From the NCBI GenBank assembly GCA_010015805.1, contig ML978146.1, forward strand, positions 124,001 through 168,830: a DNA stretch of 44,830 bases. Direction: 5' to 3'. The number at the start of each line of letters is the position of its first letter. The first letter of the stretch is position 1. This document shows positions 4,433 through 24,800 of the stretch, in pieces. Below the pieces are notes generated by a model. It saw nothing but the letters and a program-made list of their open reading frames with translations, did not search any database and was not told where the DNA came from. The position numbers were made by a program, and so were the translations under genes. Source of the stretch: Rhizodiscina lignyota. Lineage: Eukaryota.

Positions 4433-6270
4433 TTACTCAGCTGCCTTCGACTTCTCTGGCCACTCCGTCCTGCGCTTCGCTCGAACGTACAGGTTCATTG
4501 GCCGGATGAGCTGGAACATGGGATCGTACTCGACCGGATCCTCGCTGGCCTTCTCCCACTTGTAGCGGTAGATCAGCTTCGGCAGGAACGTCTTTACCTC
4601 AGTCAGCGCAAAGTTGAAGCCAATGCACATGCGGCCTCCGTGTGCGAAAGGAATGTAGGCACATTTGTGTCGCTGCTTCGTCTCGTCGCGGTCCCAGCGG
4701 TCTGGGTCGAACTTGTGAGGATTATTCCAGATCTCGGGGTTGTTGTGGATGTGGTGAAGGGCGATAATCATCACAGCCTCTGCCGGGATTTTGTAACCTC
4801 CAGGCAAGATGCAGTCAACCCTGGCAGTGCGTCCGGGCTGGTACGAAGGGTTGTGTAGCCTTTGCACTTCCTTGACGAAATTTTCCTGGAAATGAAGTTC
4901 AGCCACCTCGTCAATGCCCCACTCGGTGTTCTCATCGATCCCGTGGTCAATGTACTCCTGTAGCAAGCGCTCCTGCATCTCTGGATATGTAACGCAGCAG
5001 TAAAGAAGCCAGGAGAGAAGACTGGAGGTCGTGGCGAAACCAGCCCCAATGACCACGGCCAGGATAGGGACAACGTTCTCCTTAGGGACCTTGTTGCCTT
5101 GAGTGTCAACAGCACGCTGGACATAGTCGACAATGCAGGATGCTTGGAGAGCAGCATCCTGGAGTGGAAGGTCTCCAGTGCTGGACGCCTTGACCTCGGA
5201 GGCAGAAGCCATGATAAGCTCTGCAAGTCGCTTCTGAGTCTCACGCAGCTTTGCAGGGTCGCCAAATGGCAGGTGAGAGTACCAGTCACCACGTGAAACA
5301 ACTTTCTTGTTCAGCACGAGGCCATCCGCCACAGTCTTTACAAGCGGATGAATTGCAGCATCGGTGCCGTCGAAATGGTGCAGGTTCAAATTCAGTGCAA
5401 ATTTGCCAATGGCTTGCGAGCCGAGCTTCAACATGTACGGGTAGACGTTGAAAGCCTCTCCGCGCTCATCGAATTCGTCAAACACCGTAAAGGCCTCTCT
5501 GATGGTATCGTAGAAGAGAGGGGTGTAGTGACGAATGGCCTTGGGCGTAAAAGCCGGAGTAATAAATTTGTGGGTGATCTTCCACTCCGGCGCGTCCGAG
5601 TCCGCAATGAAGAGACCAGCTTCATTATGCTTGATGCCGTAAAGGGGATGGTCTTTGTTGATCTTCTTGGTGAAAAATGGCGACTCTTCAAAAGCAATTG
5701 CAGCAATCGCCGGGTCATTCGTCAGGTACGTGGTTCTGCCCATGTCCGTGGTCTTGATGACCGGACCGTATGTTTCGAACATTCGCTGATGGTTTCCCAA
5801 GTGCTGCCACCCATGAGACAACGCACTCCAAGCACATTCAAAGCAACTCACATCCGGAAAGACTTCGTAGAATGATCCCACGAAGGGTAAGCCTTCAGGC
5901 CCTGGCGGCACTCTGATCGTATGTTTGTCGATTGTGACTCCTCTGTGATTGGGATTCTCAGCGGTTTCCATAACTTCTGCTGTTAAGGCGAAGCCTCACA
6001 TTGCATCTTTGCTTTCCGCAATGTCGTCAATGTCATCAAGTGTGTTGTGTCCCGCATCTTCAAATGCGATGCCTGAACTCGATTAGCTTCATTCCGGCAT
6101 GTCAAGGACTGAGTCCAAGTAGCGTATTCAGATATACCTGATGGCGTTACAATGGCAAATGCAGCTCCGACTGCATCTTGAAGCGCGCTGAGATCTTGCA
6201 GAGAAGCAACGTCAAGCTCAATTGCTGCCGCTGTCTCATCCCCAATAAGGTGGAAGGTTTTGACTGCCAT
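4433..6270 (-). CDS. Cytochrome P450 without N-terminal membrane anchor (tentatively CYP540-like)
   Basis: Heme motif FAHGGRMCIG, I-helix AGFATTS, EVQR, FDPDRW. Exons 6270-6138, 6072-6000, 5942-5852, 5803-4433 joined by GT-AG introns of 65, 57 and 48 nt (the last is in frame). The family assignment is from memory. Confidence 0.9.
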
Positions 6271-6812: not shown

Positions 6813-8396
6813 ATGGAGGACGCTAAAGCTTATAGCCTTTCTGAGGTTTCGACTCACAAGTCCAGGACGGACGTTTGGATTGCCATCCACGGTAAAGGTA
6901 CGTGAGTCGAAAACATTTCCTCGTCCTGTACGGAATGTCCATTGAGAGTCTACGCGTATTTTTATGACGAGTGCTGCACCATCTGGAAGCCGTGCGTGCC
7001 TTTGTGGCATCAACGTGCTGACGAATGTTCGCAGTGTACAATGTCTCCAAATACCTTGACGAGCACCCCGGCGGCATTGACGCGATTATGGAGGTCGCCG
7101 GCTCCGACGCAACAACCACTTTCGAAGACGTCGGTCACTCGGAAGACGCTAGAGAGGTTATGGAGCAGTATTTCGTTGGCACTGTAGAGGGGCATGTTCC
7201 CACTGCTCCAGCGGTCCGAGGGCCTGCTCCACCTGCCGCTGCGACTGTTGCTCTCGCTGCCCCAGCTGCAAATGCTTCCTCGTCCACCCCAGCGTCCAAA
7301 CCAACGCACAGCCCAATGACACTGCTCATCCTCGGGGTCCCGGCTGCGGCGATTCTGGGTTACCAGCTTCTCGTTCGGATGCCTGGTGGTCACTCTGTGT
7401 CTGGCCATGGCCACGGTCATTCAGGAGGATTCTGGACGGGCTTCTTGATTTCCAGCACGCTTGGAACGTTCGTCCTCGCGACCGCCATCATCCGCCTGGA
7501 GAAGGCATTCAGCATCTCTCGCGACATTGGCTCTTTCCCAACTCACATCACCCCGACGAACCCGGTCACTGTCCAAGTGACGACGAACAAGGGCGTGTTG
7601 AATCCCAAGGAGTACCAGCGCTTCCCCTTGGCAAGAAAGGAGATGATGAGTCCTAACGTATGTCTGTTTGTGTTCCGCCTGCCGACTCCACGCTCTATTC
7701 TTGGTCTACCCATTGGTCAGCACATCGCCATACGTGCCACTGTCAACGGGAAACAGATAAGTCGATCGTACACGCCAGTGAGCAACAACACGGATAAAGG
7801 AGAGCTGCGTAAGTTTACCACGATACTTATGCACCACAGTGGCTGCTAACAGAAAATCAGGACTCGCAATCAAACTCTACTCCAATGGCCAGCTCACAGG
7901 CGGTTACCTTGCGAACCTCCAAATCGGCGACGAAGTCGAGTTCCGCGGGCCTAAAGGCACAATGCGCTACCGCAAGGGACACTTCAAGCAGCTCGGCATG
8001 ATTTGCGGCGGTACAGGCATCACGCCCATGTTCCAGCTCATCCGCGCCATCTGCGAAGATCCCGCCGATGATACAAACATCAGTCTCCTCTTCGCCAACG
8101 CGACCGAGAACGACATCATCATGCGCGACATGTTGGAGGAGTGGCGGGCTAAAAACCCGAAGCAGTTCAAGGTGTGGTACAAGCTTGACCACCCGCCGGA
8201 AGGGTGGACTTATGGAAAAGGGTATATTGCGAAGGATGATATTTTGACGAGGTTGCCTCCGCCAGCGGCGGGTACGCAGATCCTACTATGTGGGCCGCCA
8301 GGCATGGTGAAGGGTGCCTCGAAGAGTTTGCTCGAGCTGGGTTATGAGAAGCCGAATGCTGTGTCAAAGGCGGCGGATCAGGTCTTCTTGTTCTAA
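6813..8396 (+). CDS. Cytochrome b5 - NADH:cytochrome b5 reductase fusion protein with two central hydrophobic segments
   Basis: Exons 6813-6897, 7035-7808, 7861-8396. b5 heme motifs [21 protein letters not shown] and FEDVGHS; Pro/Ala linker; hydrophobic segments LLILGVPAAAILGYQLLV and FWTGFLISSTLGTFVLATAII; reductase motifs RSYTP, GGTGITP, CGPPGM. Confidence 0.92.
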
Positions 8397-14327: not shown

Positions 14328-14742
14328 TCAAGCCCCATTCTCCTCCTTCCATCGCTGCAGATATCTCTCCCCAGTTATCGCAAACTGAGGATCCCACCAC
14401 ATCCCCCTCTTGATCGCATGCGGTCGGTCGATCTTCTCGGTCACGAATGGCGTCAACTATCCACGCTTCCAGTTAGCGTCGTCTTCAACACTTCACATCT
14501 TCTCTCCTCTAACTTTTCAATTCAAACAGCAAGGGAAGGTAGCAGCATACCTCAAAGTCCGCCAACCCATCCGGCACAATGTACGTTCGCACCTTCGACG
14601 CGTCGAGCTTGTATTTTCCGAACTTGCCGAAGGTGCCCATTGATCCAGTCCGGTTGCCCTTGTAGTAGCCCTTGCGCGCTTGCTTGGTTGTTAATTGCAG
14701 GCGCTTGATGGCTTTGAGGAGGGGTTGGGTTGGATAAAACAT
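14328..14742 (-). CDS. MRPL27: Mitochondrial ribosomal protein L27 (mL41)
   Basis: Exon 14742-14551 (MFYPTQPLL...RLQLTTKQARKGYYKGNRTGSMG...KVRTYIVP), intron 14550-14457 (GTATGC...GCTAAC...TAG), exon 14456-14328 (LTPFVTEK...RWKEENGA*). Confidence 0.92.
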
Positions 14743-14939
14743 GGTGTCGGCGCGTTTATAATTGTCAATGGGCGATATCAAAGTTGCGCTTTTAGTGGTG
14801 AGGAAAACTTGAAGCTGTTCGGCGCTGGCAGAATATCGGCCCGGAGTCGGGAGCTCTACAAAAAGTTCGAAATCTTGGCATTGCAGATATATTTTTTGTG
14901 CGATTCACTCTACAACCATTCAATTCCATACCAACAAAT
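14743..14939. promoter_or_regulatory. Compact bidirectional promoter between MRPL27 and UTP14
   Basis: Only 197 bp separate the two divergent start codons. Confidence 0.6.
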
Positions 14940-17771
14940 ATGCCCGCGAGATTATCGAGGAGCTCTGTCTCCACCGAGGAACCGCACTCGAAGCGCAAGC
15001 GCGTCCAGAAGCGTGCGCTGAACGCCCTCTCCATCGCGGAAGAGGAAGAGCCTGACCGACCGCGAGTGCGACAACACCGCCTGGGCGAATCAGAAGGTGG
15101 CGAGTCGAGATGGAAGCGTCGAAGACTTGAACATGATGAGGAAGAAGATGAAGAGGAGGATGGAGATTCGGCATCAAGGCGCAGACAAAAGCATGACTCG
15201 CGCCGCGAAAGAGGGGACGAGCTAGATGTGTCGGAGGGGAGCGACAGCGAGGGGAATACTTGGCAGATGGGGCATGTGGATGAGGATGACGATAGTGATA
15301 TTGATAGCGATGATGCTTTTGGGGATAGCGACGAAGAAAGATTTGAAGGGTTCACGTTTCGAGGCTCGTCGACGAACAAACCGAAACCAAAGCGAGACAG
15401 AGCCTCCGATGGTGATGATGAGGACCTTTTGGATGAGGATGGGAAGGGCGATGCAGACAACGACGATGATGATGAGAGTCTTGGAGAAGAGGCGGTGGAT
15501 CTTGCTACAATGCTAGATAATTACGAAGAGGAGGAGGAGGAAGAGCAGGGCGGACGGCGTTCAGGAGCGCAGCAAAAAGGCTCTCAGGACGACAAGGAAG
15601 ATATATGGTCTCCCTCTGAGGATGAAGCAGAACCCGACGAATCTGCTGGGCTTGCAAAAATGAGCGCAATTGTATCAGCTCTACCCGTGGAGGATGACGA
15701 TGACACGACACAGCGCAAGTCCTTCACGAGTCAAGGATTACAACCTGGGAAGACCGCCACCAAACAGAAAGTGACATTTGACGATCTACTCGGGAAGAGT
15801 ACCGGTACCGATATCGCGGTTTCGAAACGCGCTCGCAAACTGGCGACAATGAATGACAGACCTTCCAAGAATAGTGGAGCATCTGGAAGACTTGATGTGG
15901 CCCCAGCAAAGAGAGTGAAAGATCAGAACGAGCGCAAGGCAGCAGACAAGAAGGCGAGGGAAACACTGGACCGCTGGGTCGACACTGTCAAGCACAACAG
16001 GCGAGCAGAGCATGTATCGTTTCCACTTGCCGATCCAACGATGTCTACACCGGCTGGAGCGAAGCGACTGCTTCCCACTTCGGCATCTCTTCCGGCTACG
16101 GATTTGGAGAGCGCCATCTCGAACATCCTGCAGGAAAGTGGTTTGGGAGGGCCTGGCAAGAAGGATGAAGAAGAAGAGATTCAGGAATTCGAAGAGCTTC
16201 AGATGCGCAAGATGCCGATTGAGGAGGTCGAAGCTCGACGCGCACAACTGCGAATGGCACGAGATCTCATGTTCCGAGAGGAGATCCGGGCAAAGCGGAT
16301 CAAGAAGATCAAGAGCAAGGCATACAGACGTGTCCATCGGAAGGAGAAGGAACGAGCTGCGCTCAGAGATGCAGATATCTTTGGCGAGGGGGAGATGTCT
16401 GACGACGAGCGCGAAAGACTAGATCGACGTCGAGCGGAAGAGCGAATGGGCGCTAAGCATCGAGACAGTAAATGGGCAAAGAGTATGAAGCAGGCTGGTA
16501 GAGCGGCTTGGGATGAAGACGCTCGTGCCGGTATTGTGGATATGGCGAGGCGGAATGAGGAGTTGCGGAGAAGGATCGAGGGGAAGGAAATGCGAGAGGA
16601 GAGTGATGAGATTTCAGAGTCGAGTGATAATGAGGAGGGGGACGACGATGAGGGAGCGACGAGGAAGATGCAGCAGAAGTTGAACAATTTGCAGCGTACG
16701 GACGACTCCAAGCTGTCCGGCATAGCTGGCATGAAGTTTATGCAGGTTGCTGAAGCAGCGCGCAAGGCTCAGAACGACGAAGACATCGATCGACTGCGGC
16801 GAGAGCTGGCTGGTGAAGATTCTTTTGAGGACAAGTCCAACGACGAAGAAACAAACGTTCAAGGACGACGGAAGTATGGGCCGAAAGAAAGACAAGCTTC
16901 AAAATCTGCGATTACGGCAGCCCCTCAAAATCGCAGCGAATTCGAAGAGCGCAATGAGTCTGACGGCGACGATCAGGGCGAAAATGATGAGGTTGGAATC
17001 GCCATGGAACGCAATGACCAAGCTACACAGTCAAACAAGTTCAAGCAGAAATTCAGGCTGCCAAACAAGCTAAGCAACAATGTTGATCAGCAGGTCATCG
17101 AACATGACGAAGAAACCGAGAACCCTTTCCTGAACCCGAAGAAGCGCAACAGAAAGAAGAAGGCAGAAACACAGGCTTCAGTCGATGTCTCCAAGAAGGG
17201 AGCCTCTCCTGATGCTGCTACCGATACCGACGGCTGGATCACGGTATCTCACAAGCAAAATGGTGCTGAAACCGGGGTCAGCGACAATGAGGAGGAACCA
17301 CCTACTCTCTCTCGCAACGAGCTGCTCGTCCAACAAGCCTTCGCCGGCGACTACACCGCAGAGGATTTCGAGAAGCAAAAGAATGCCGTCATCGAAGAAG
17401 AAGACGAGAAGGTCATCGACAACGCTCTGCCTGGCTGGGGTTCCTGGGCCGGCGCTGGCGTCTCCAGGCGCGAACAGAATCGCAACAAGGGCCGCTTCCT
17501 CACGAAGCAAGACGGTGTGAAACTCCAGGACAGGAAAGACGTGAAACTCAAGAACGTTATTATTAACGAGAAGAGAGTCAAGAAGAATGGCGCATATCTT
17601 GCGTCTCAGCTACCGTTCCCGTATGGGACGAGGGAGGAGTATGAGAGGAGTATGAGGATGCCGGTGGGTGGGGAGTGGAATACAAAGGTCACGTTGCAGG
17701 AGAATGTTAAGCCGAGGGTGCTGGTTAAGCAGGGAATGGTGATTAAGCCTATTGAGAAGCCGTTGGTGTAG
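14940..17771 (+). CDS. UTP14: U3 snoRNA-associated SSU processome protein Utp14
   Basis: Intronless acidic/basic ORF with Utp14 signatures RAKRIKKIKSKAYRRVHRKE, ERMGAKHRDSKWAK, LPGWGSWAG, VIINEKRVKK, QLPFPY and EYERSMRMPVGGEWNT. Confidence 0.95.
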   Translation: MPARLSRSSVSTEEPHSKRKRVQKRALNALSIAEEEEPDRPRVRQHRLGESEGGESRWKRRRLEHDEEEDEEEDGDSASRRRQKHDSRRERGDELDVSEGSDSEGNTWQMGHVDEDDDSDIDSDDAFGDSDEERFEGFTFRGSSTNKPKPKRDRASDGDDEDLLDEDGKGDADNDDDDESLGEEAVDLATMLDNYEEEEEEEQGGRRSGAQQKGSQDDKEDIWSPSEDEAEPDESAGLAKMSAIVSALPVEDDDDTTQRKSFTSQGLQPGKTATKQKVTFDDLLGKSTGTDIAVSKRARKLATMNDRPSKNSGASGRLDVAPAKRVKDQNERKAADKKARETLDRWVDTVKHNRRAEHVSFPLADPTMSTPAGAKRLLPTSASLPATDLESAISNILQESGLGGPGKKDEEEEIQEFEELQMRKMPIEEVEARRAQLRMARDLMFREEIRAKRIKKIKSKAYRRVHRKEKERAALRDADIFGEGEMSDDERERLDRRRAEERMGAKHRDSKWAKSMKQAGRAAWDEDARAGIVDMARRNEELRRRIEGKEMREESDEISESSDNEEGDDDEGATRKMQQKLNNLQRTDDSKLSGIAGMKFMQVAEAARKAQNDEDIDRLRRELAGEDSFEDKSNDEETNVQGRRKYGPKERQASKSAITAAPQNRSEFEERNESDGDDQGENDEVGIAMERNDQATQSNKFKQKFRLPNKLSNNVDQQVIEHDEETENPFLNPKKRNRKKKAETQASVDVSKKGASPDAATDTDGWITVSHKQNGAETGVSDNEEEPPTLSRNELLVQQAFAGDYTAEDFEKQKNAVIEEEDEKVIDNALPGWGSWAGAGVSRREQNRNKGRFLTKQDGVKLQDRKDVKLKNVIINEKRVKKNGAYLASQLPFPYGTREEYERSMRMPVGGEWNTKVTLQENVKPRVLVKQGMVIKPIEKPLV

Positions 17772-18016
17772 GTGCAGTGTGAGACAGGATGATGGCCGCA
17801 TGGACTCACGGAGTTTGGTACTACGAAATCTAGTCATCTGAATGATGCTCACGCATTTACCTAAAAGGAAGATAAACCTTGATTGGCTGCACATCTTCGA
17901 GCCGAGCATCAAATTATTACCACCAGAGCATTGGCACACAAATTGCCCCGGACCGCTTCACTGTGCCTAGGACGCTTCTCAATTGGCGCCGAGACCTCTT
18001 TCCCATTTCATATTCC

Positions 18017-19471
18017 TCAAATATTGATGTGTGGTATATACATGGACCAGTCAACAGACACGAATGCGCTTACTGGAAGCCGCCGTAAGGAGATAATGTC
18101 TTCGATCAGGATATATATCCGGAAGATCGTGTACAGGGCACACAGCGGTGTGGTGAAAAGCAGAGCATGAAGTGGAATTTCGAGGGCTGGATCCTGGTCT
18201 GGACTGTTGTTCCGCGTCTTGGAAAGTAGTCGTTTAAGCGTGCTCAGCTTCTTTTCCTTTGAAGGTCTGGCCGGCGCTCCTGGTTGCTTGGTCTGTTCAA
18301 TATCGCGCGGCACATCGACTTCCTCTGAGATCTGATTGGGTCTCAGAAACATGTATGAGGCTTCGAAGATCGCCCCAATGACTACAACTACCAAAGTGCC
18401 CAGAGTGGAGATTCGCCACAATAGCCTTTCTACGTTCGAAGGATAATATAGATTCCACCCTGCTACAAAAATCCCAGTGTACGAGAATGACAATAGCAGC
18501 ATCAAGAAGACCATCGGCCGGGTAAGCCTGGGAAATTAGAACGAAGTAAACCTTTACACTGGCTTAACTCGTGGCCGGATTATCACAACTCTCATTCGTC
18601 GAAGGATGTTAACATAGTAGACCCAAAGTTGACTGCCAATCCATTCCTTTCGGCTGATACACTCCAGTGGCGTGAGATGGTACTCCTCGAGGCTTGCTCC
18701 AGGAAACTCGCTGACGATCTTCTTCAATTCCGATTCGCATTGCAGTGTTACAGGGTATAGAATATCCATTGGTTTGTTTCTCCAGAAGCAGAGTGTGCCC
18801 AAGGCGCAGAAGATGTACCCCAATGTCGTCAGTTCCAGTGTGGTAACCGCTAGCCGCTGGGTTGGACGAGCTATCGTGTTAAGTGTGAACCAGAACATTT
18901 GAACGGAAGAGATGATCCTGTAAAGCTGTTAGCATGTGTTCTTTGCTTGCTCCAATTGTACTAGCCGTGAAAGTCCGTCACGCTTGTTTTTGTCCTTGAT
19001 CACATCCAAGGTTAAATGCGAAGGATACTGAAGATACTCTTTGGCAACGAGATAGTGCAATTGTTCAGCGTTAACCGGAAATGCGTTGCAGCCATCGAAC
19101 TTCACATGAACGCCTCCCATATCAGCAAAATATGAGTGCCTCATGGTCCAATCGTCTGTAGGCTGTGATTTCTTAACTGTCCTGAATTTCTGAGTGGCAG
19201 TCTTTGCGCAACAATACTGTCCAATTGCTGACATGAGGACGAACTCAGGACCGAGAATTCCAAGGCAGAACATATGCCATCGGTCTTGGATGATGTCCCT
19301 GGATCCTTTACCAGGAGCTGGTACATTAACGCAAGCACAGGTCCAGATGCAAAGGAAGGTGGTAATCGCGCAAGAAGTCAGAATGTCTAGCGTCCCTCGA
19401 TCATTGGATTGTGGTACCCAACCTCGAGTGCCTCCATGTTGTACAGTTGTATTGAGCGTAGTTGAGTTCAT
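18017..19471 (-). pseudogene. Uncharacterised fungal multi-pass membrane protein family member (RGTLDIL-SC...NVP type); interrupted by two in-frame TAA, so either a pseudogene or rescued by a 30-nt intron
   Basis: Three collinear ORF pieces: GWVPQSNDRGTLDILTSCAITTFLCIW...WTMRHSYFADMGG...DKNKRDGLSR; LAVTTLELTTLGYIFCALGTLCFWRNKPMD; WNLYYPSNVERLLWRIST...SVDWSMYIPHI. The first join needs intron 18965-18918 with a GC donor. The second join carries TAA at 18556-18554 and 18538-18536. Confidence 0.65.
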
Positions 19472-20477
19472 CGGCAGCTCGAACAGCAATCTAGCGGTAG
19501 TTGTCGTGGTATTACACTTGAAGACGTGAGTAAGGAGAGTCTAACCTCTCCACTGCAATAAACCTCTGGAGCATATAATTATACTCTGCCGCGAAGTTCA
19601 GACTCCACACGGCCAATGCGCATCAGCGCTGAAACATTGCGGCACAGCACCGCGCATGCGCACCCACACTTTGACAACTACACCAGCCTAGGACTCAGAC
19701 AGATCGAAAACATAGACTGCTGTAGCTCGTGCGACTGGAGATGACAAAATATGTCGGATCTGAGCCCCCACGCTCCTCGTCAGTTGCCATGATTGGTGTA
19801 TAGACGGTCAAGGAGACTGTTTCGAGCAGATAGGCGCCGTAGATAGACGCCGAACCCTTGCCAACCGCGATGGCTCCCTGCAAGACGATGGCCGGCTCAT
19901 TGGGCAAAGTTGTGTGGTTTAATTCCGGATGAGACTTCGGTGGCGTGGACAAGCGCTGAGATTCGCTCTCAACTCCCTTCAAATGCAGGGGGCCTTGGTG
20001 GTGGTCATCCACACCTGCGGCTCCTAGCTACGCTGATGGATTGATGAGTCGGCTTGGTGCATTCGAAGCGTGCAACAATTTCATGGTGCAATCTGAATGT
20101 TTGAAAGCAAAGCAACGAAAGAAAAGAATCTCCATTTGAGCAATGTATTCTTGGGAGCGATGCTTCCCTGTTTTCATCAGCAGAAATTGCAAAGCCTGTA
20201 CGAATTACCGAGATGCAACATGTTGATCGGACGGAGACGCTGCAAGAATGTAAGAACTTGGAAAGTCAGATCAAGTCTGGATATGCACAGGGTAAAATGT
20301 CATCTGCACAATACATCCAAGTGCCGTCCAGAGGGCCGCTTATATAATCATGGTCGGTGCCTGGCAGTCCTGTATGATTGTTGATTTCCGCAACCCCACA
20401 AAACAATCCATCACGCATCATCCAGCCCTCACCCTTTCTCAAATCCGTACCTACGGGCTTCTGCATAGTCTGCGGCA

Positions 20478-21514
20478 ATGTCCGATAGCCGTCCGAGACG
20501 GTTCCGACTGCGCTATGTAGCGGCGGTGCTCGCACTGTTTGCCGCTGTAATAATGGGTAGGTGGAGTTTCTTCTCTCAATGCTGGACAGGAAGCATGATC
20601 AGGACTTTTCCAAAGCTGCTTCAACCTCAACCTGTCCCACTCAACGCCGCTATTTGATCGTAGATGCTAAGTCTTCCGTCTTTACAGGCCTGGTCGCGAG
20701 TAATGGCGCAGAATCTCCATCCGTGGAAGATTATTACAGCTCTTTCGAGTCCCGACTTGGGTATTGGTTGCTACTGGGCAACACCAGACACTGCGGACTA
20801 TACAAAAAGGGACAGCTTTCTCCATTCCCTATCTCGAGAGCGCAACGCGCAATGGAGGAGAAACTTTACACACGTCTTGGGCTAAAGGAAGGAGCCCGGA
20901 TCCTGGATGCAGGCGCTGGCTCCGGCTATGTTGCTATATATATGGCGCGGAAGGGTCTTAATGTCCAAGCAATCGATGTTACACCCCACCACTTAGTAGA
21001 TGCCCAAAAAAATGTTCGAGAGAATGGACTAACAGAGAAGATCGCCGTCGATTACGGCGACTATCACAATCTGACGACGTTCAACGACGAATCCTTCGAC
21101 GGCATTTATACTATGGAGACGTTTGTCCATGCAGACGATCCTGTCAAAGTGCTCAATAACTTCTATCGCCTTCTGAAACCTGGTGGTGTACTAGTCCTCC
21201 ATGAAGCTGATTTCAACCGGAACTCGCAGAGGCTGCAAGAGGTCCTCCGTCTATCCCACTGTGGGAATACACTGGAAGAAGGCGAGTATCGTAAGCTCGC
21301 CGAAGAGGTCGGATTCAAAGATTTTACCTTGGAAGACCTAACGGATGAGGTCTTGCCAATGTGGCGGCTCTTTGGTGTTGTTGGCTATGTTCCGTACCAG
21401 CTCTTCAAATTGCTTGGGATTGCTCATAGATTTACAAATGTTATGGCTGGAGTTGAAGCATGGTTGAATTGGGGAGACGGCAGGTACATTTCAGTGCGTG
21501 TTGTCAAACCTTGA
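20478..21514 (+). CDS. Class I SAM-dependent methyltransferase (sterol-methyltransferase-like) with N-terminal signal anchor
   Basis: Exon 20478-20556 (MSDSRPRRFRLRYVAAVLALFAAVIM), intron 20557-20687 (GTAGGT...GCTAAG...TACAG), exon 20688-21514. Motif I ILDAGAGSG, plus FDGIYTMETFVHA and LLKPGG. Confidence 0.87.
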
Positions 21515-21655
21515 CCGTTGAAACAGGAAGGTTTCCGTCAAAATCTTCGTCTATCCCCGTGTATATAGTATAGTACTAGAGGAAACTCAATGGCAGATAG
21601 ATTGCCGGCCCTAACCTCGGATACCACGGGAGGTTCACGAGACTGCTACGAGATC

Positions 21656-21797
21656 GGAGGAGTATGAGAGGGAAAGTTGGCCCGTCCGTGCCACGGTAAG
21701 GAGTGGAATACGAAGGTCATGCTGCAAGATGTTTAGTTGAGGGTGTCAATGAGGTAGGGGATGGTGATCAACCCCTATTGAGAAGCCGTTGGTGTAG
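21656..21797 (+). repeat. Degenerate direct duplicate of the UTP14 3' end (copy of about 17633-17771)
   Basis: 24 bp identical (CCTATTGAGAAGCCGTTGGTGTAG at 17748-17771 and 21774-21797), 16 bp identical (GGAGGAGTATGAGAGG at 17633 and 21656) and an alignable GGAGTGGAATAC...AAGGTCA stretch between them. The copy has two in-frame TAG, a 3-nt deletion and a +1 shift. Confidence 0.9.
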
Positions 21798-23354
21798 AGC
21801 ACATTAGATTGTGTGCAATAAATAGTATCGCAGTTGCAGCTTGCTTCATGTCCACGAGTGTTGAGTGTTCTGCCACTCTAGTCAAGTGCTATGCTATTAA
21901 GGTTAACGCGTAGGTTTTAGTTTCGGGCTATTCTAAATCCAATTGCACTTCGAGATTTATGAATTTCGATGAATATCGGAAGCGCAATTAAGCACACTCA
22001 AACACCATTGCAAGCCTACATGTGGAACCGTTGAGCCGCAATCAGGTCCTCTACAATAATAACTCTTCACAATGGGGTTTCTACGCTTTGAGCGCAGCCA
22101 GATGGCAACAGCTGAAATTGAACAGTCCGACCCGATATATATATGTACAGTTGTACACAAAAGAACGTGTGATGAGGCATTGTTTAGATGGATCGGCTCT
22201 CCGCCACCTTATCAGGCTTCTATACTAATGTTTTATCTGTAAGTTAAGACCCTCCACTTGTTCTCTGCTCTTATTCTTTATTTCATTTCGTTTCTGCTCA
22301 CCAGTACTACAGGAACCTGTGATACTACCTTCTGCCAGGTCATCAGATGTAGGCATTCGTACGAGACGGCCAACCTGAAACATTTCTTACGAGTGTTTGA
22401 ACTTTGAGACGGCCTTTAGTTAAGCTTAATTTTCAAAAGACCAATAAGAGGGCCTCGTCTTGATTGAATTAGTCGTCGTTATCTTGCCATAACTTAGGCC
22501 CGGCGAGTGGCGCGTAGTGTTGCACATTTTGCATGTGCAATTTGGTGTAACCACCAATCAAGTATCGCGGCCTCTGTTCATTCACCATCTTCTCAAATGG
22601 ACCCTTGAATCAAATCATCCGCCTCGCCTATCTCATCCATCTCACCGTAGTAATTGCCACTTTACGTCTTGCGTCAAAAGTCTGATCTAATTTGTGGCTG
22701 CGGTATTTGCGTGCTGACAAGCTCTTTAAACTGCATACCACAACCTTGTTGTTCCTTGATTCGGGGCGTCAACCGCGCAAGATACAAGATTTTCGTTTCA
22801 ACTCCGAGCGACTGAGATCCGAAGGCTTCTTCCAAGAGGCTAGTATGGCTACCAGCCGCGACGATTCGGAGGTTACTGTCGATCTTTCCTACATTCCAGA
22901 GCGCATACCAGGCCGCGTCGCCTCAAGACCATGCTCTTGAGCAATTCGTCTCCACCTTGGAGTCTCCACCTACCTCTTGTCCTTGGCGTTCAGTGCGCCC
23001 TATTCGATGTTGTCCAAAATGAATCGCTTTGTAGTGGAGCTGAGGGAGAATGGTCACGGGTGAGGCGCTGAAGGCGCTACCATTGAGACAGAATTTCTCT
23101 ACTGTTCTTATACACGAGGTGCAGTTGCTGATCCCACGGCTCTTTTCTCACCACTCATTCCAACAGTTCTTCTTACCAGTCATTCTTTTGTCTGTCCTTA
23201 CCAAAGTCACTCTTTGACGACTTTTGTGCGTCGTTCTTTAACAAGTCACTCCTTAAACAGCATCTTTTCAGCCTCTCCTTTGCAGGAGGTTTACCGGGGA
23301 GACCCCAAATTCCACAGAATCCATTCCTTCCGACCTTTGAAAAACATCACAACC

Positions 23355-24800
23355 ATGCGTGGTCTCACAACACTAGCATTAGGGGCTGTAGGCTGCTTGA
23401 TCGGAAGATCGCTGGCTGTTCCTACGCCTGTGGTAATTGTGACTCCAGGGGATGCTAGTGATGTTGTGATTTCATCGAACAATACGGTGAATGCCACGGC
23501 TCCTGCGCCCTCGACCCCTCCTTCGACCAAGAGCCATACTATTGTTACGCCTAGAGATACAGCAGACACTGTCATTACGGCAAGAAACGTTTTGAATGCG
23601 ACAACGAGTGGTTCAGCGGCGGATGCCAACTTGGTCGGCAGGTCAACTGGCCAGCTACCCCTTTCTCTGGTCAACAACTTTGCTGGATCAATCAACGCCT
23701 ATGTTACTGGTTTGGATGTTAACGGCCGGCTCGTTATGCTCCAACCAGACGGTACATTTCTCTATCCGTCCTGCGACAGTGCTCAAAGCACGCCTCAGCT
23801 CATTACGGACAATATCGCTATCCCACTTGGTGCGAAGGGCAGCACATTAAACATTACAATCCCAGGATACATATCTGCGGCTCGAGTGTGGTTTGCAGCG
23901 GGTGACCTGAAGTTCTTCGCCGTCTGGAACCCTGCGACCAATGCACCGTCACTTGTCGAGCCTTCCTCGGTGAACCCTTCAGACCCATCTGCTGCCGTCA
24001 ACTGGGGCTTCGTTGAACTCACGTACGTTGAGAACGGTGGCTTGTATGCGAATATTAGCTACGTCGACTTTGTGGGCCTCATCTTGGGGATGTCACTCGC
24101 TGTTACCGATGGCTCTGGCACCCAGTCAGCTCTTGGCCTTGCGGCGGATGCGATCTCAAATATATGCAGTGCCCTTGAGTCACAGGGCAAGAGCGATGGC
24201 CAAGAATGGGGCAACCTCTGCATGGCCGACAGTGAAGGAAATTTATTGCGTGTCATTGCTCCAAGCGACTATGTCTCTTCCAATCCAGACGCTTTTAGCA
24301 CTTTCTGGAATGAATACATCGACGACGTCTGGGAGCAGTTCACCACGGATGTGCTCAGCATTGATACCCAAATGAGTGCCGGCATTGTGAACTGCACAGT
24401 GCAGACTGACGATCTCTTGCATTGCGACGGCGACAGTCGTGGCTACGCTAAACCTGTGGCTGCTGATATATTTGGATGCAACACCGGGCCTTTCGGAATT
24501 GAAGCTGGTGACAACGACGTCCATAGCGCTGTTGTTCCTCGCCTCTGTGCGGCCTTTGATCGCACCACTCTTTCGATGGAAGGTGGAAATATCCAGCCTA
24601 GCCTTGCAGCACAGAGCTACTACCAAAGCGCACCCACGAACTGGTACAGCAAGTTTGTGCACCAGCATGAGGTCGATGGCAAGGGGTATGCATTCTCATA
24701 CGATGATGTTAACCCTGACGGAGATGTCAACCAGAGTGGTGTGGTCGCAAGCGCAAATCCCGAGACATTGACGGTTATTGTTGGAGGTCCTCTTTCGTAG
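23355..24800 (+). CDS. Secreted GH64 beta-1,3-glucanase with repeated N-terminal pro/linker region
   Basis: Signal peptide MRGLTTLALGAVGCLIGRSLA. GH64 motifs WGFVELT, LYANISYVDFVG, IFGCNTGPF, PRLCAAF, TNWYSKFVH, GKGYAFSYDDV. Confidence 0.9.
   Translation: MRGLTTLALGAVGCLIGRSLAVPTPVVIVTPGDASDVVISSNNTVNATAPAPSTPPSTKSHTIVTPRDTADTVITARNVLNATTSGSAADANLVGRSTGQLPLSLVNNFAGSINAYVTGLDVNGRLVMLQPDGTFLYPSCDSAQSTPQLITDNIAIPLGAKGSTLNITIPGYISAARVWFAAGDLKFFAVWNPATNAPSLVEPSSVNPSDPSAAVNWGFVELTYVENGGLYANISYVDFVGLILGMSLAVTDGSGTQSALGLAADAISNICSALESQGKSDGQEWGNLCMADSEGNLLRVIAPSDYVSSNPDAFSTFWNEYIDDVWEQFTTDVLSIDTQMSAGIVNCTVQTDDLLHCDGDSRGYAKPVAADIFGCNTGPFGIEAGDNDVHSAVVPRLCAAFDRTTLSMEGGNIQPSLAAQSYYQSAPTNWYSKFVHQHEVDGKGYAFSYDDVNPDGDVNQSGVVASANPETLTVIVGGPLS

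What the first reader, a model, noticed from the sequence alone, without database searches (positions are those of the whole stretch)
17633..21797. A ~4 kb two-gene module bracketed by direct copies of the UTP14 3' end: an integration-like footprint at an essential gene
Seen: the last ~140 bp of UTP14 recur about 4 kb downstream (21656-21797) in the same orientation. The copy ends exactly at the stop codon with 24 identical bases but contains two TAG stops, a 3-nt deletion and a frameshift. Several differences are synonymous relative to the UTP14 frame (ACA/ACG, TTG/CTG, CAG/CAA, GGA/GGG, ATT/ATC). Between the copies lie two divergent accessory genes. Inference: a DNA segment, possibly a circle carrying a homologous UTP14 tail, integrated by single crossover into the 3' end of UTP14, regenerating the gene and leaving a displaced tail. 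This is analogous to prophage/ICE integration at gene 3' ends. An old local tandem duplication with decay is the alternative. No recombinase or transposase is visible in the module.
Basis: partly seen in the sequence, partly recalled or inferred. Interest (0 to 1): 0.8.

Follow-up and report, generated by a model that had tools for sequence, protein, structure and literature searches.

The report
Old gene-pair insertion scar behind UTP14
In a fungus, a two-gene block that sits in different places in other fungi lies just behind an essential ribosome-building gene, with a decayed copy of that gene's tail on its far side; this is most likely the scar of a one-off insertion, not an active mobile element.

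Summary
The last ~140 bp of UTP14 (17633-17771) recur, decayed, at 21656-21797 (147 columns, 74.8%, E 9e-17). It is the only other copy found in this fungal genome. The genes between the copies, a membrane protein of no named family (probably a pseudogene) and a SAM methyltransferase, are a conserved divergent pair. They are neighbours in 7 other named fungal genomes and occur together in 13 of 51 metagenome loci, none of which shows UTP14. That supports arrival by insertion. A foreign tail is not supported: the copy carries a motif unique to this UTP14 (1 of 265 tails), and synonymous changes are not enriched (8 of 19, P 0.20). The pair is not bracketed by repeats elsewhere (0 of 8 loci), no nuclease or recombinase was found, and a similar tail remnant lies elsewhere on the same scaffold. 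Best reading (0.55): a one-off insertion by host break repair that copied the resident gene end. The layout matches yeast WHO elements, but their defining features were not met. The empty site could not be tested.

The parts
14940..17771 (+). UTP14, intact, 943 aa, single copy in the genome
   Evidence: Pfam PF04615 E 1.2e-193; no second copy of 14940-17632 found in G000
17633..17771 (+). Resident UTP14 3' end that is duplicated (weak extension back to about 17605)
17748..17771 (+). 24 nt identical in both copies, ending in the UTP14 stop
   Evidence: chance of a run this long: 0.074 anywhere, 0.002 at this end
18017..19471 (-). Fungal multi-pass membrane protein of no named family. Probable 48-nt GC-AG intron at 18918-18965. 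Two in-frame TAA stops (18554-18556, 18536-18538) in a motif kept in all 12 aligned homologues: probable pseudogene
   Evidence: no Pfam family over cut-off in 103 members; helical model pLDDT 89. Intron limits read from the sequence and the homologue alignment, no RNA data
20478..21514 (+). Class I SAM-dependent methyltransferase, 301 aa, hydrophobic N-terminus, intron 20557-20687, intact
   Evidence: Pfam Methyltransf_11 E 3.7e-20; database protein P0001 matches; nearest solved relatives are small-molecule and lipid-headgroup methyltransferases at E 1e-18 to 1e-15
19472..20477 (.). Divergent promoter region of the gene pair; no remnant of a third gene found
21656..21797 (+). Decayed direct copy of the UTP14 3' end (2 TAG stops, several indels); weak extension to about 21616
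23355..24800 (+). GH64 beta-1,3-glucanase, the next gene; presumed earlier downstream neighbour of UTP14 (inferred, not shown)
   Evidence: Pfam PF16483 E 1.1e-129

Best explanation
A fossil of a single insertion. A DNA piece with the conserved membrane-protein/methyltransferase pair was joined into the chromosome at the 3' end of UTP14 by host break repair (staggered break filled in, or copying from the sister chromatid with a template switch). The last 140-190 bp or more of the resident gene end ended up on both sides, like a very long target-site duplication. The upstream copy stayed the working UTP14 end and was held by selection. The downstream copy drifted neutrally (about 0.15 changes per non-synonymous site, plus indels). 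Any duplicated UTR drifted in both copies and is no longer alignable, so the match appears to stop at the stop codon. Shown: the duplication, its origin from this lineage's own UTP14, neutral decay, the pair's conservation and its changing neighbourhood. Inferred: that insertion and duplication were one event, the repair route, and that 21798 onward is the old UTP14 downstream flank. Whether the pair came from elsewhere in the genome or from another fungus is open.
For: The pair are neighbours in other fungi. Accessions lie 1-2 apart in all 5 genomes looked up (Trematosphaeria, Byssothecium, Amniculicola, Lophiostoma, Lindgomyces), and locus tags are consecutive in Rhinocladiella and Myotisia. 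The pair is divergent in all of L020-L025. Flanking genes differ from locus to locus (read by eye from ORFs), and 0 of 51 loci hit UTP14. The block fills the space between the copies closely. The copy shares GMVI with the resident alone, 1 of 265 tails; the closest relative P0122 has GRVI. Synonymous share is neutral. No remnant of a second gene pair right of the copy. Insertions of 2.8-6.6 kb that duplicate a host gene's 3' end and leave it intact are described in yeast (PMC7282813, section 12).
Against: No empty site was seen: no related genome is held and no related UTP14 locus could be fetched. Most of the 51 loci are short. Only one close orthologous locus (L020) has over 1 kb on both sides, so 'never beside UTP14' is weakly sampled. 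A second gene-tail remnant about 6 kb from its parent lies on the same scaffold and is part of a repeated 300-bp unit, so such remnants also arise by other routes. The perfect 24-nt end (P 0.002 at that end, 0.074 anywhere) is not explained by uniform drift. The trees do not show a foreign donor: the membrane gene branches outside the Pleosporales group.
Confidence: 0.55

Rival explanations
1. Uncoupled local rearrangement. The pair reached UTP14 first, and the tail copy arose later: pasted from the nearby template at a break 4 kb away, left by a tandem duplication of tail plus pair whose second half was deleted, or left at reused inversion breakpoints.
For: A similar remnant (M20 amidohydrolase tail, 95 nt, 80%, about 6 kb downstream, two genes between) lies on the same scaffold; 2 such cases in 968,830 bases scanned, both on C26. 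Dothideomycete genomes are shuffled by inversions (recalled; PMC3516569 seen only as a search listing).
Against: The copy sits within 100-140 bp of the methyltransferase stop in a 1.8-kb intergenic region and in direct orientation. No trace of a second pair in 21798-23354. The RIP index TpA/ApT of the methyltransferase exon (0.76) lies within that of five close orthologues (0.63-0.82), so no scar of a former tandem duplicate.
Confidence: 0.28
2. One reading: a circle carrying a UTP14 tail plus the two genes integrated by one homologous crossover, replacing the gene's end and displacing the old one. The 24 identical bases would mark the crossover.
For: The layout fits. The 24-nt identical end is unusual.
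Against: The donor must already have had the pair beside a UTP14 tail, which only moves the question back. The tail is this lineage's own, there is no synonymous excess, and the resident tail is not unusually diverged from the closest relative (41 of 46 identical vs 79 of 94 just upstream).
Confidence: 0.11
3. Relic of a WHO-like homing element that targets UTP14, its nuclease lost or supplied from elsewhere in the genome.
For: Same order as WHO loci: essential gene, cargo, decayed 3' fragment (PMC7282813, sections 10 and 12).
Against: No Hom_end match in G000 (incomplete genome, weak control). No nuclease family in the cargo. Only one fragment, no cluster. No accelerated tail evolution. No bracketing repeat at 8 other loci of the pair.
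Confidence: 0.05

Closest known systems
WHO homing elements at FBA1 in Torulaspora and Lachancea (PMC7282813, passages and sections 10 and 12 read; bioRxiv 10.64898/2026.08.13.744650, abstract only)
   Same: Essential host gene, then inserted genes, then a decaying direct copy of the host gene's 3' end; host gene stays intact.
   Different: No endonuclease in the cargo, one fragment of about 140 bp rather than clusters with ~400-bp fragments, no fast-evolving or replaced 3' end, filamentous ascomycete.
WHO10 insertions at BXI1 and E1850 in Torulaspora globosa (PMC7282813, section 12)
   Same: Insertions of 2.8-6.6 kb that duplicate the 3' end of an unrelated host gene without disrupting it, by a route the authors call unclear; the size matches the 3.9-kb block here.
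   Different: Those carry an intact WHO nuclease, are recent and strain-specific; this one is old and has no nuclease.
Break-repair insertions with long flanking duplications (general knowledge; fungal repair papers PMC9684475 and PMC9779921 seen only as search listings)
   Same: No element-encoded enzyme, single event, duplicated flank longer than a transposase target site.
   Different: No difference shown; the route itself is inferred.
Starship elements (PMC9156397, PMC10104507; search listings only)
   Same: Move accessory fungal genes between sites and species; could have carried the pair earlier.
   Different: No DUF3435 captain on this scaffold (matches only on C2); block only 3.9 kb; the short direct repeats typical of Starships (recalled) differ from a 140-bp gene tail.
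Prophage/ICE integration at gene 3' ends
   Same: Gene end duplicated and regenerated.
   Different: No integrase, no conserved attachment core, single copy, eukaryote.

Membership tests
WHO homing element | Duplicated 3' fragment of the host gene downstream of the inserted genes | tested here: met
WHO homing element | Element encodes an intein-like LAGLIDADG endonuclease with zinc finger | tested here: not met
   Cargo is a methyltransferase and an all-helical membrane protein; nothing else coding found between the copies; PF05204 has 0 matches in G000 (the genome may be incomplete)
WHO homing element | Host gene 3' end replaced, so unusually diverged or discordant | tested here: not met
   41 of the last 46 residues identical to P0122 vs 79 of the 94 before; protein level, one relative only
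WHO homing element | Clusters of several elements and fragments at the locus | tested here: not met
   One fragment only by nhmmer and by a profile of 120 UTP14 tails
WHO homing element | Presence/absence polymorphism and allele-specific cleavage | not testable with these tools
   One run holds the stretch; no relatives held
Starship | DUF3435 tyrosine recombinase captain at the element's start | tested here: not met
   PF11917 matches only on contig C2, none on C26
Integrase-driven island (prophage/ICE-like) | Integrase gene and same attachment site reused | tested here: not met
   No such gene in the block; 0 of 51 methyltransferase loci hit UTP14; 0 of 8 loci with both genes have bracketing repeats (three have flanks under 600 bp on one side, five are distant paralogous pairs)
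Break-repair insertion with long target duplication | Duplicated flank derives from the resident chromosome | tested here: met
   GMVI motif unique to the resident among 265 tails and present in the copy; neutral synonymous share
Break-repair insertion with long target duplication | Empty site in relatives with one copy of the flank | not testable with these tools
   No related locus could be fetched
Horizontally acquired gene pair | Cargo trees nest the genes inside a distant lineage | tested here: inconclusive
   Methyltransferase falls in a Pleosporales plus Lophium group (SH-aLRT 99, nesting only 86); the membrane protein is sister to, not inside, the Pleosporales group; quick trees, no AU test run

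The most novel reading that the evidence does not exclude
Filamentous fungi have a nuclease-free, WHO-like route of gene gain: accessory gene blocks land repeatedly at the 3' ends of genes, copying the gene tail so that the host gene survives, and the tail copy then serves as a homology arm for spread between alleles or for clean excision through the 24 identical bases. The second gene-tail remnant on the same scaffold would be another case.
Probability: 0.08. Interest if true: 0.75.

Novelty: new member of a known kind. Interest (0 to 1): 0.3.

Why it matters
As it stands it is a readable fossil of how an accessory gene pair reached a new place in a fungal chromosome without breaking an essential gene. 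If sister genomes show the empty site, it is a clean example of captain-free gene gain by repair, and short decayed gene tails become a searchable marker for such events. The by-product may matter more: a membrane protein of no named family and a membrane-anchored methyltransferase stay paired across Dothideomycetes and Eurotiomycetes. A search of six of their identifiers found no paper.

Tried and rejected
Assembly artefact: rejected (copies 25% apart; one contig spans the region). Segmental duplication of the whole block: rejected (insert, rest of UTP14 and right flank are single copy). Foreign tail: rejected. RIP as the cause of decay: not supported. 16 of 19 changes are transitions, but by my reading of the list they show no CpA preference, and the RIP indices match orthologues. 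Third gene between the pair, suggested by one skipped accession in three genomes: no remnant found. Bracketing repeats at the five paralogous membrane-gene sites in G000: none in the scan. UTP14 loci of relatives: none in viral contigs or genome contigs; the one metagenome scan went to the methyltransferase. Placing UTP14 relative to the pair by accession numbers: the 10 UTP14 proteins looked up included none of the pair-bearing genomes. The contig length of the closest UTP14 relative (30,987) is not among those of the 120 of 226 methyltransferases or 120 of 295 membrane proteins listed; too weak to count as an empty site. Expression: no RNA holder listed. Excised circle: contigs only, no joint shown, no evidence either way. 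Fold of the membrane protein: no Foldseek match at E 0.001 or better; best Z 8.5, rmsd 5.5, 162 aligned to Hrd1, within noise for helical proteins. ESM Atlas: only unnamed ascomycete clusters. PF14527 was searched by mistake for a homing family and is not used. Literature: searches found no report of this locus or of UTP14 as an insertion site; the library lacks most subscription papers, and no supplements were read.

Full report
Setting. The window is G000:C26:124001-168830, the end of a 168,830-base scaffold of a 33.4-Mb genome. The genes are fungal. The database proteins matching the two cargo genes are labelled Rhizodiscina lignyota, and the nearest named UTP14 proteins are from Dothideomycetes. 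No related genomes are held, which limits every comparative test below.

The observation. blastn finds 17633-17771 again at 21656-21797, same strand, 147 columns at 74.8%, E 8.8e-17; the score is 106 against at most 30 in 100 shuffles. The last 24 nt through the stop are identical. The copy has two TAG stops, a 3-nt deletion, a 1-nt insertion and several more indels in its 5' third. nhmmer carries the match weakly back to about 17605/21616. An anchored extension to the left is reached by 5 of 200 shuffles, to the right of the stop by 34 of 200, so no UTR similarity is shown. The genome search finds only these two copies, and single copies of the rest of UTP14, of the insert and of the right flank. 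One Logan contig spans 13000-26000 unchanged, though it may come from the same data.

Whose tail is it? The copy reads (stop)-G-M-V-I then PIEKPLV. GMVI occurs at this place in 1 of 265 UTP14 tails, the resident's (the 11 other rows printed matched an unrelated QGM upstream). The closest relative, P0122 (78% over the C-terminal 184 aa), has GRVIAPVEK. One difference points the other way: the copy has GKEW where the resident and P0122 have GGEW, and P0175 has GKEW; two G-to-A changes suffice to explain it. In the well-aligned part 8 of 19 substitutions are synonymous against 5.95 expected if only the copy drifted (P 0.20); over the whole alignment 9 of 24 against 6.9 (P 0.21). The resident also drifts at silent sites, so no excess is left for a foreign or once-functional tail. 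The resident's tail is no more diverged from P0122 than the part before it (41 of 46 vs 79 of 94). A run of 24 identical columns has probability 0.074 somewhere in the alignment and 0.002 at this end. It may be chance, since local alignments end in matches, or a later conversion tract; it remains unexplained.

The cargo. The plus-strand gene (20478-21514, one intron) is an intact SAM methyltransferase with a hydrophobic N-terminus. The minus-strand gene (19471-18017) belongs to a fungal membrane family without a Pfam name. Its model is confident and almost all helical (pLDDT 89) and has no clear fold match. It has two in-frame TAA codons six codons apart, in a stretch that all 12 aligned homologues keep as coding. 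The public gene model removes them as a 30-nt gap, which I take for a predictor's artefact (inference; no RNA data), so the gene is probably a pseudogene.

The two genes are a conserved pair. Accessions lie 1-2 apart in all 5 genomes looked up and locus tags are consecutive in two more. Of 51 metagenome loci fetched with the methyltransferase, 13 also hit the membrane family; in L020-L025 the arrangement is divergent as here (L020 and L021 look like one organism). Even methyltransferases only 42% identical sit beside members of the same membrane family (L033, L034, L041-L043, L045, L048). Neighbours differ between loci, and 0 of 51 loci hit UTP14 or the GH64 gene, though most loci are short. 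None of 8 loci with both genes and DNA on both sides has a bracketing direct repeat, while the same test finds the window's; three of the 8 have short flanks and five are distant paralogous pairs. The methyltransferase groups with Pleosporales and Lophium (SH-aLRT 99), apart from Glonium. The membrane protein is sister to the Pleosporales group. Lindgomyces and Lophium, of different orders, share a 90% cluster, a hint that the gene moves between fungi, but the trees do not show transfer into this genome. They are quick trees; I used 37, 26 and 32 selected rows.

How common are such remnants? In 968,830 bases of G000 (2.9% of the genome) there were 95 repeat pairs under 30 kb apart. Nearly all are repeats within genes, paralogues or inverted repeats. 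By my reading two are a gene tail with a non-coding copy over 0.5 kb away: this one, and an amidohydrolase tail (C26:73456-73550, copy at 67377-67471, 80%, two genes between). The latter copy is part of a 300-bp unit that recurs, AT-enriched, at C26:11406-11724. Both are on C26, which also has transposon remains. Tail remnants are thus uncommon but not unique, and not tied to UTP14 or to this cargo.

Mechanism. The pair comes from elsewhere, the copy is the resident's own, and the pair fills the space between the copies closely. The simplest single event is an insertion by host break repair that left the last 140-190 bp or more of UTP14 on both sides (0.55). The match ends at the stop because only coding sequence was held constant in one copy (inference). 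The main rival is a later, separate pasting or duplication-deletion (0.28); the close fit and the lack of any second-pair remnant speak against it, the amidohydrolase case for it. Homologous integration of a tail-bearing circle (0.11) needs a donor that already had the linkage. A homing relic (0.05) lacks a nuclease.

Comparison with known systems. The layout is that of yeast WHO elements, and especially of WHO10 insertions of 2.8-6.6 kb that duplicate the 3' end of a host gene (PMC7282813, passages and sections 10 and 12; abstract of bioRxiv 10.64898/2026.08.13.744650). It looks like a WHO locus but is not one: endonuclease, cluster and replaced tail were tested and not met. It is not a Starship (captains only on C2; papers seen as listings) and not an integrase-driven island. 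Searches found no report of this locus; the library is incomplete and no supplements were read.

Verdict. Observation confirmed, interpretation partly supported. An old one-off insertion scar, a new member of a known kind, interest 0.3. The bold reading, a nuclease-free gene-tail integration route in filamentous fungi, is not excluded (0.08) and is testable by a genome-wide count of 3' fragments and by the empty site in sister species.

Noticed in passing
G000:C26:73436-74742 (L078) and 67341-67632 (L077): M20 amidohydrolase gene with a decayed 95-nt copy of its tail about 6 kb downstream in the same orientation, with a Zn-cluster-like regulator and an FAD oxidoreductase between (names read by eye from ORFs); the copy is part of a 300-bp unit that recurs AT-enriched at C26:11406-11724.
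   Followed up: partly
window 18017-21514; L020-L025, L033, L034, L041-L043, L045, L048: The unnamed membrane-protein family and this methyltransferase family are paired across Dothideomycetes and Eurotiomycetes, even in distant subfamilies; function unknown, possibly methylation at a membrane coupled to transport.
   Followed up: partly
window 18536-18565 (- strand): The stretch with the two stops reads GT...CTAAT...CAG over 30 nt, like a very short intron; the public gene model splices it. Possibly an exon piece turning into an intron, more likely an artefact.
   Followed up: partly
window 18918-18965 (- strand): Probable GC-AG intron of 48 nt; the public model uses a GT donor 12 nt further on, which leaves four residues that homologues lack.
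   Followed up: partly
P0002 and P0243: Methyltransferases of Lindgomyces and Lophium, of different orders, fall in one 90% identity cluster: a candidate horizontal transfer.
   Followed up: no
window 4503-4522 and 8025-8044: Perfect 20-nt inverted repeat, 3.5 kb apart, inside a P450-like and a cytochrome b5 reductase-like ORF; both encode PMFQLIR. Probably coincidence.
   Followed up: no
G000:C2:2387634-2388940 and C2:1464181-1465035: DUF3435 (Starship captain) matches, one strong and one weak.
   Followed up: no
G000:C26:18200-21100 and 21998-22468 (L072, L073): LINE-like retrotransposon ORF remains (read by eye) and a 470-bp palindromic element; the scaffold looks rich in repeats and accessory genes.
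   Followed up: no
window 14740-14940: UTP14 is head to head, about 200 bp apart, with a gene that looks like mitochondrial ribosomal protein L27 (name recalled, not searched).
   Followed up: no
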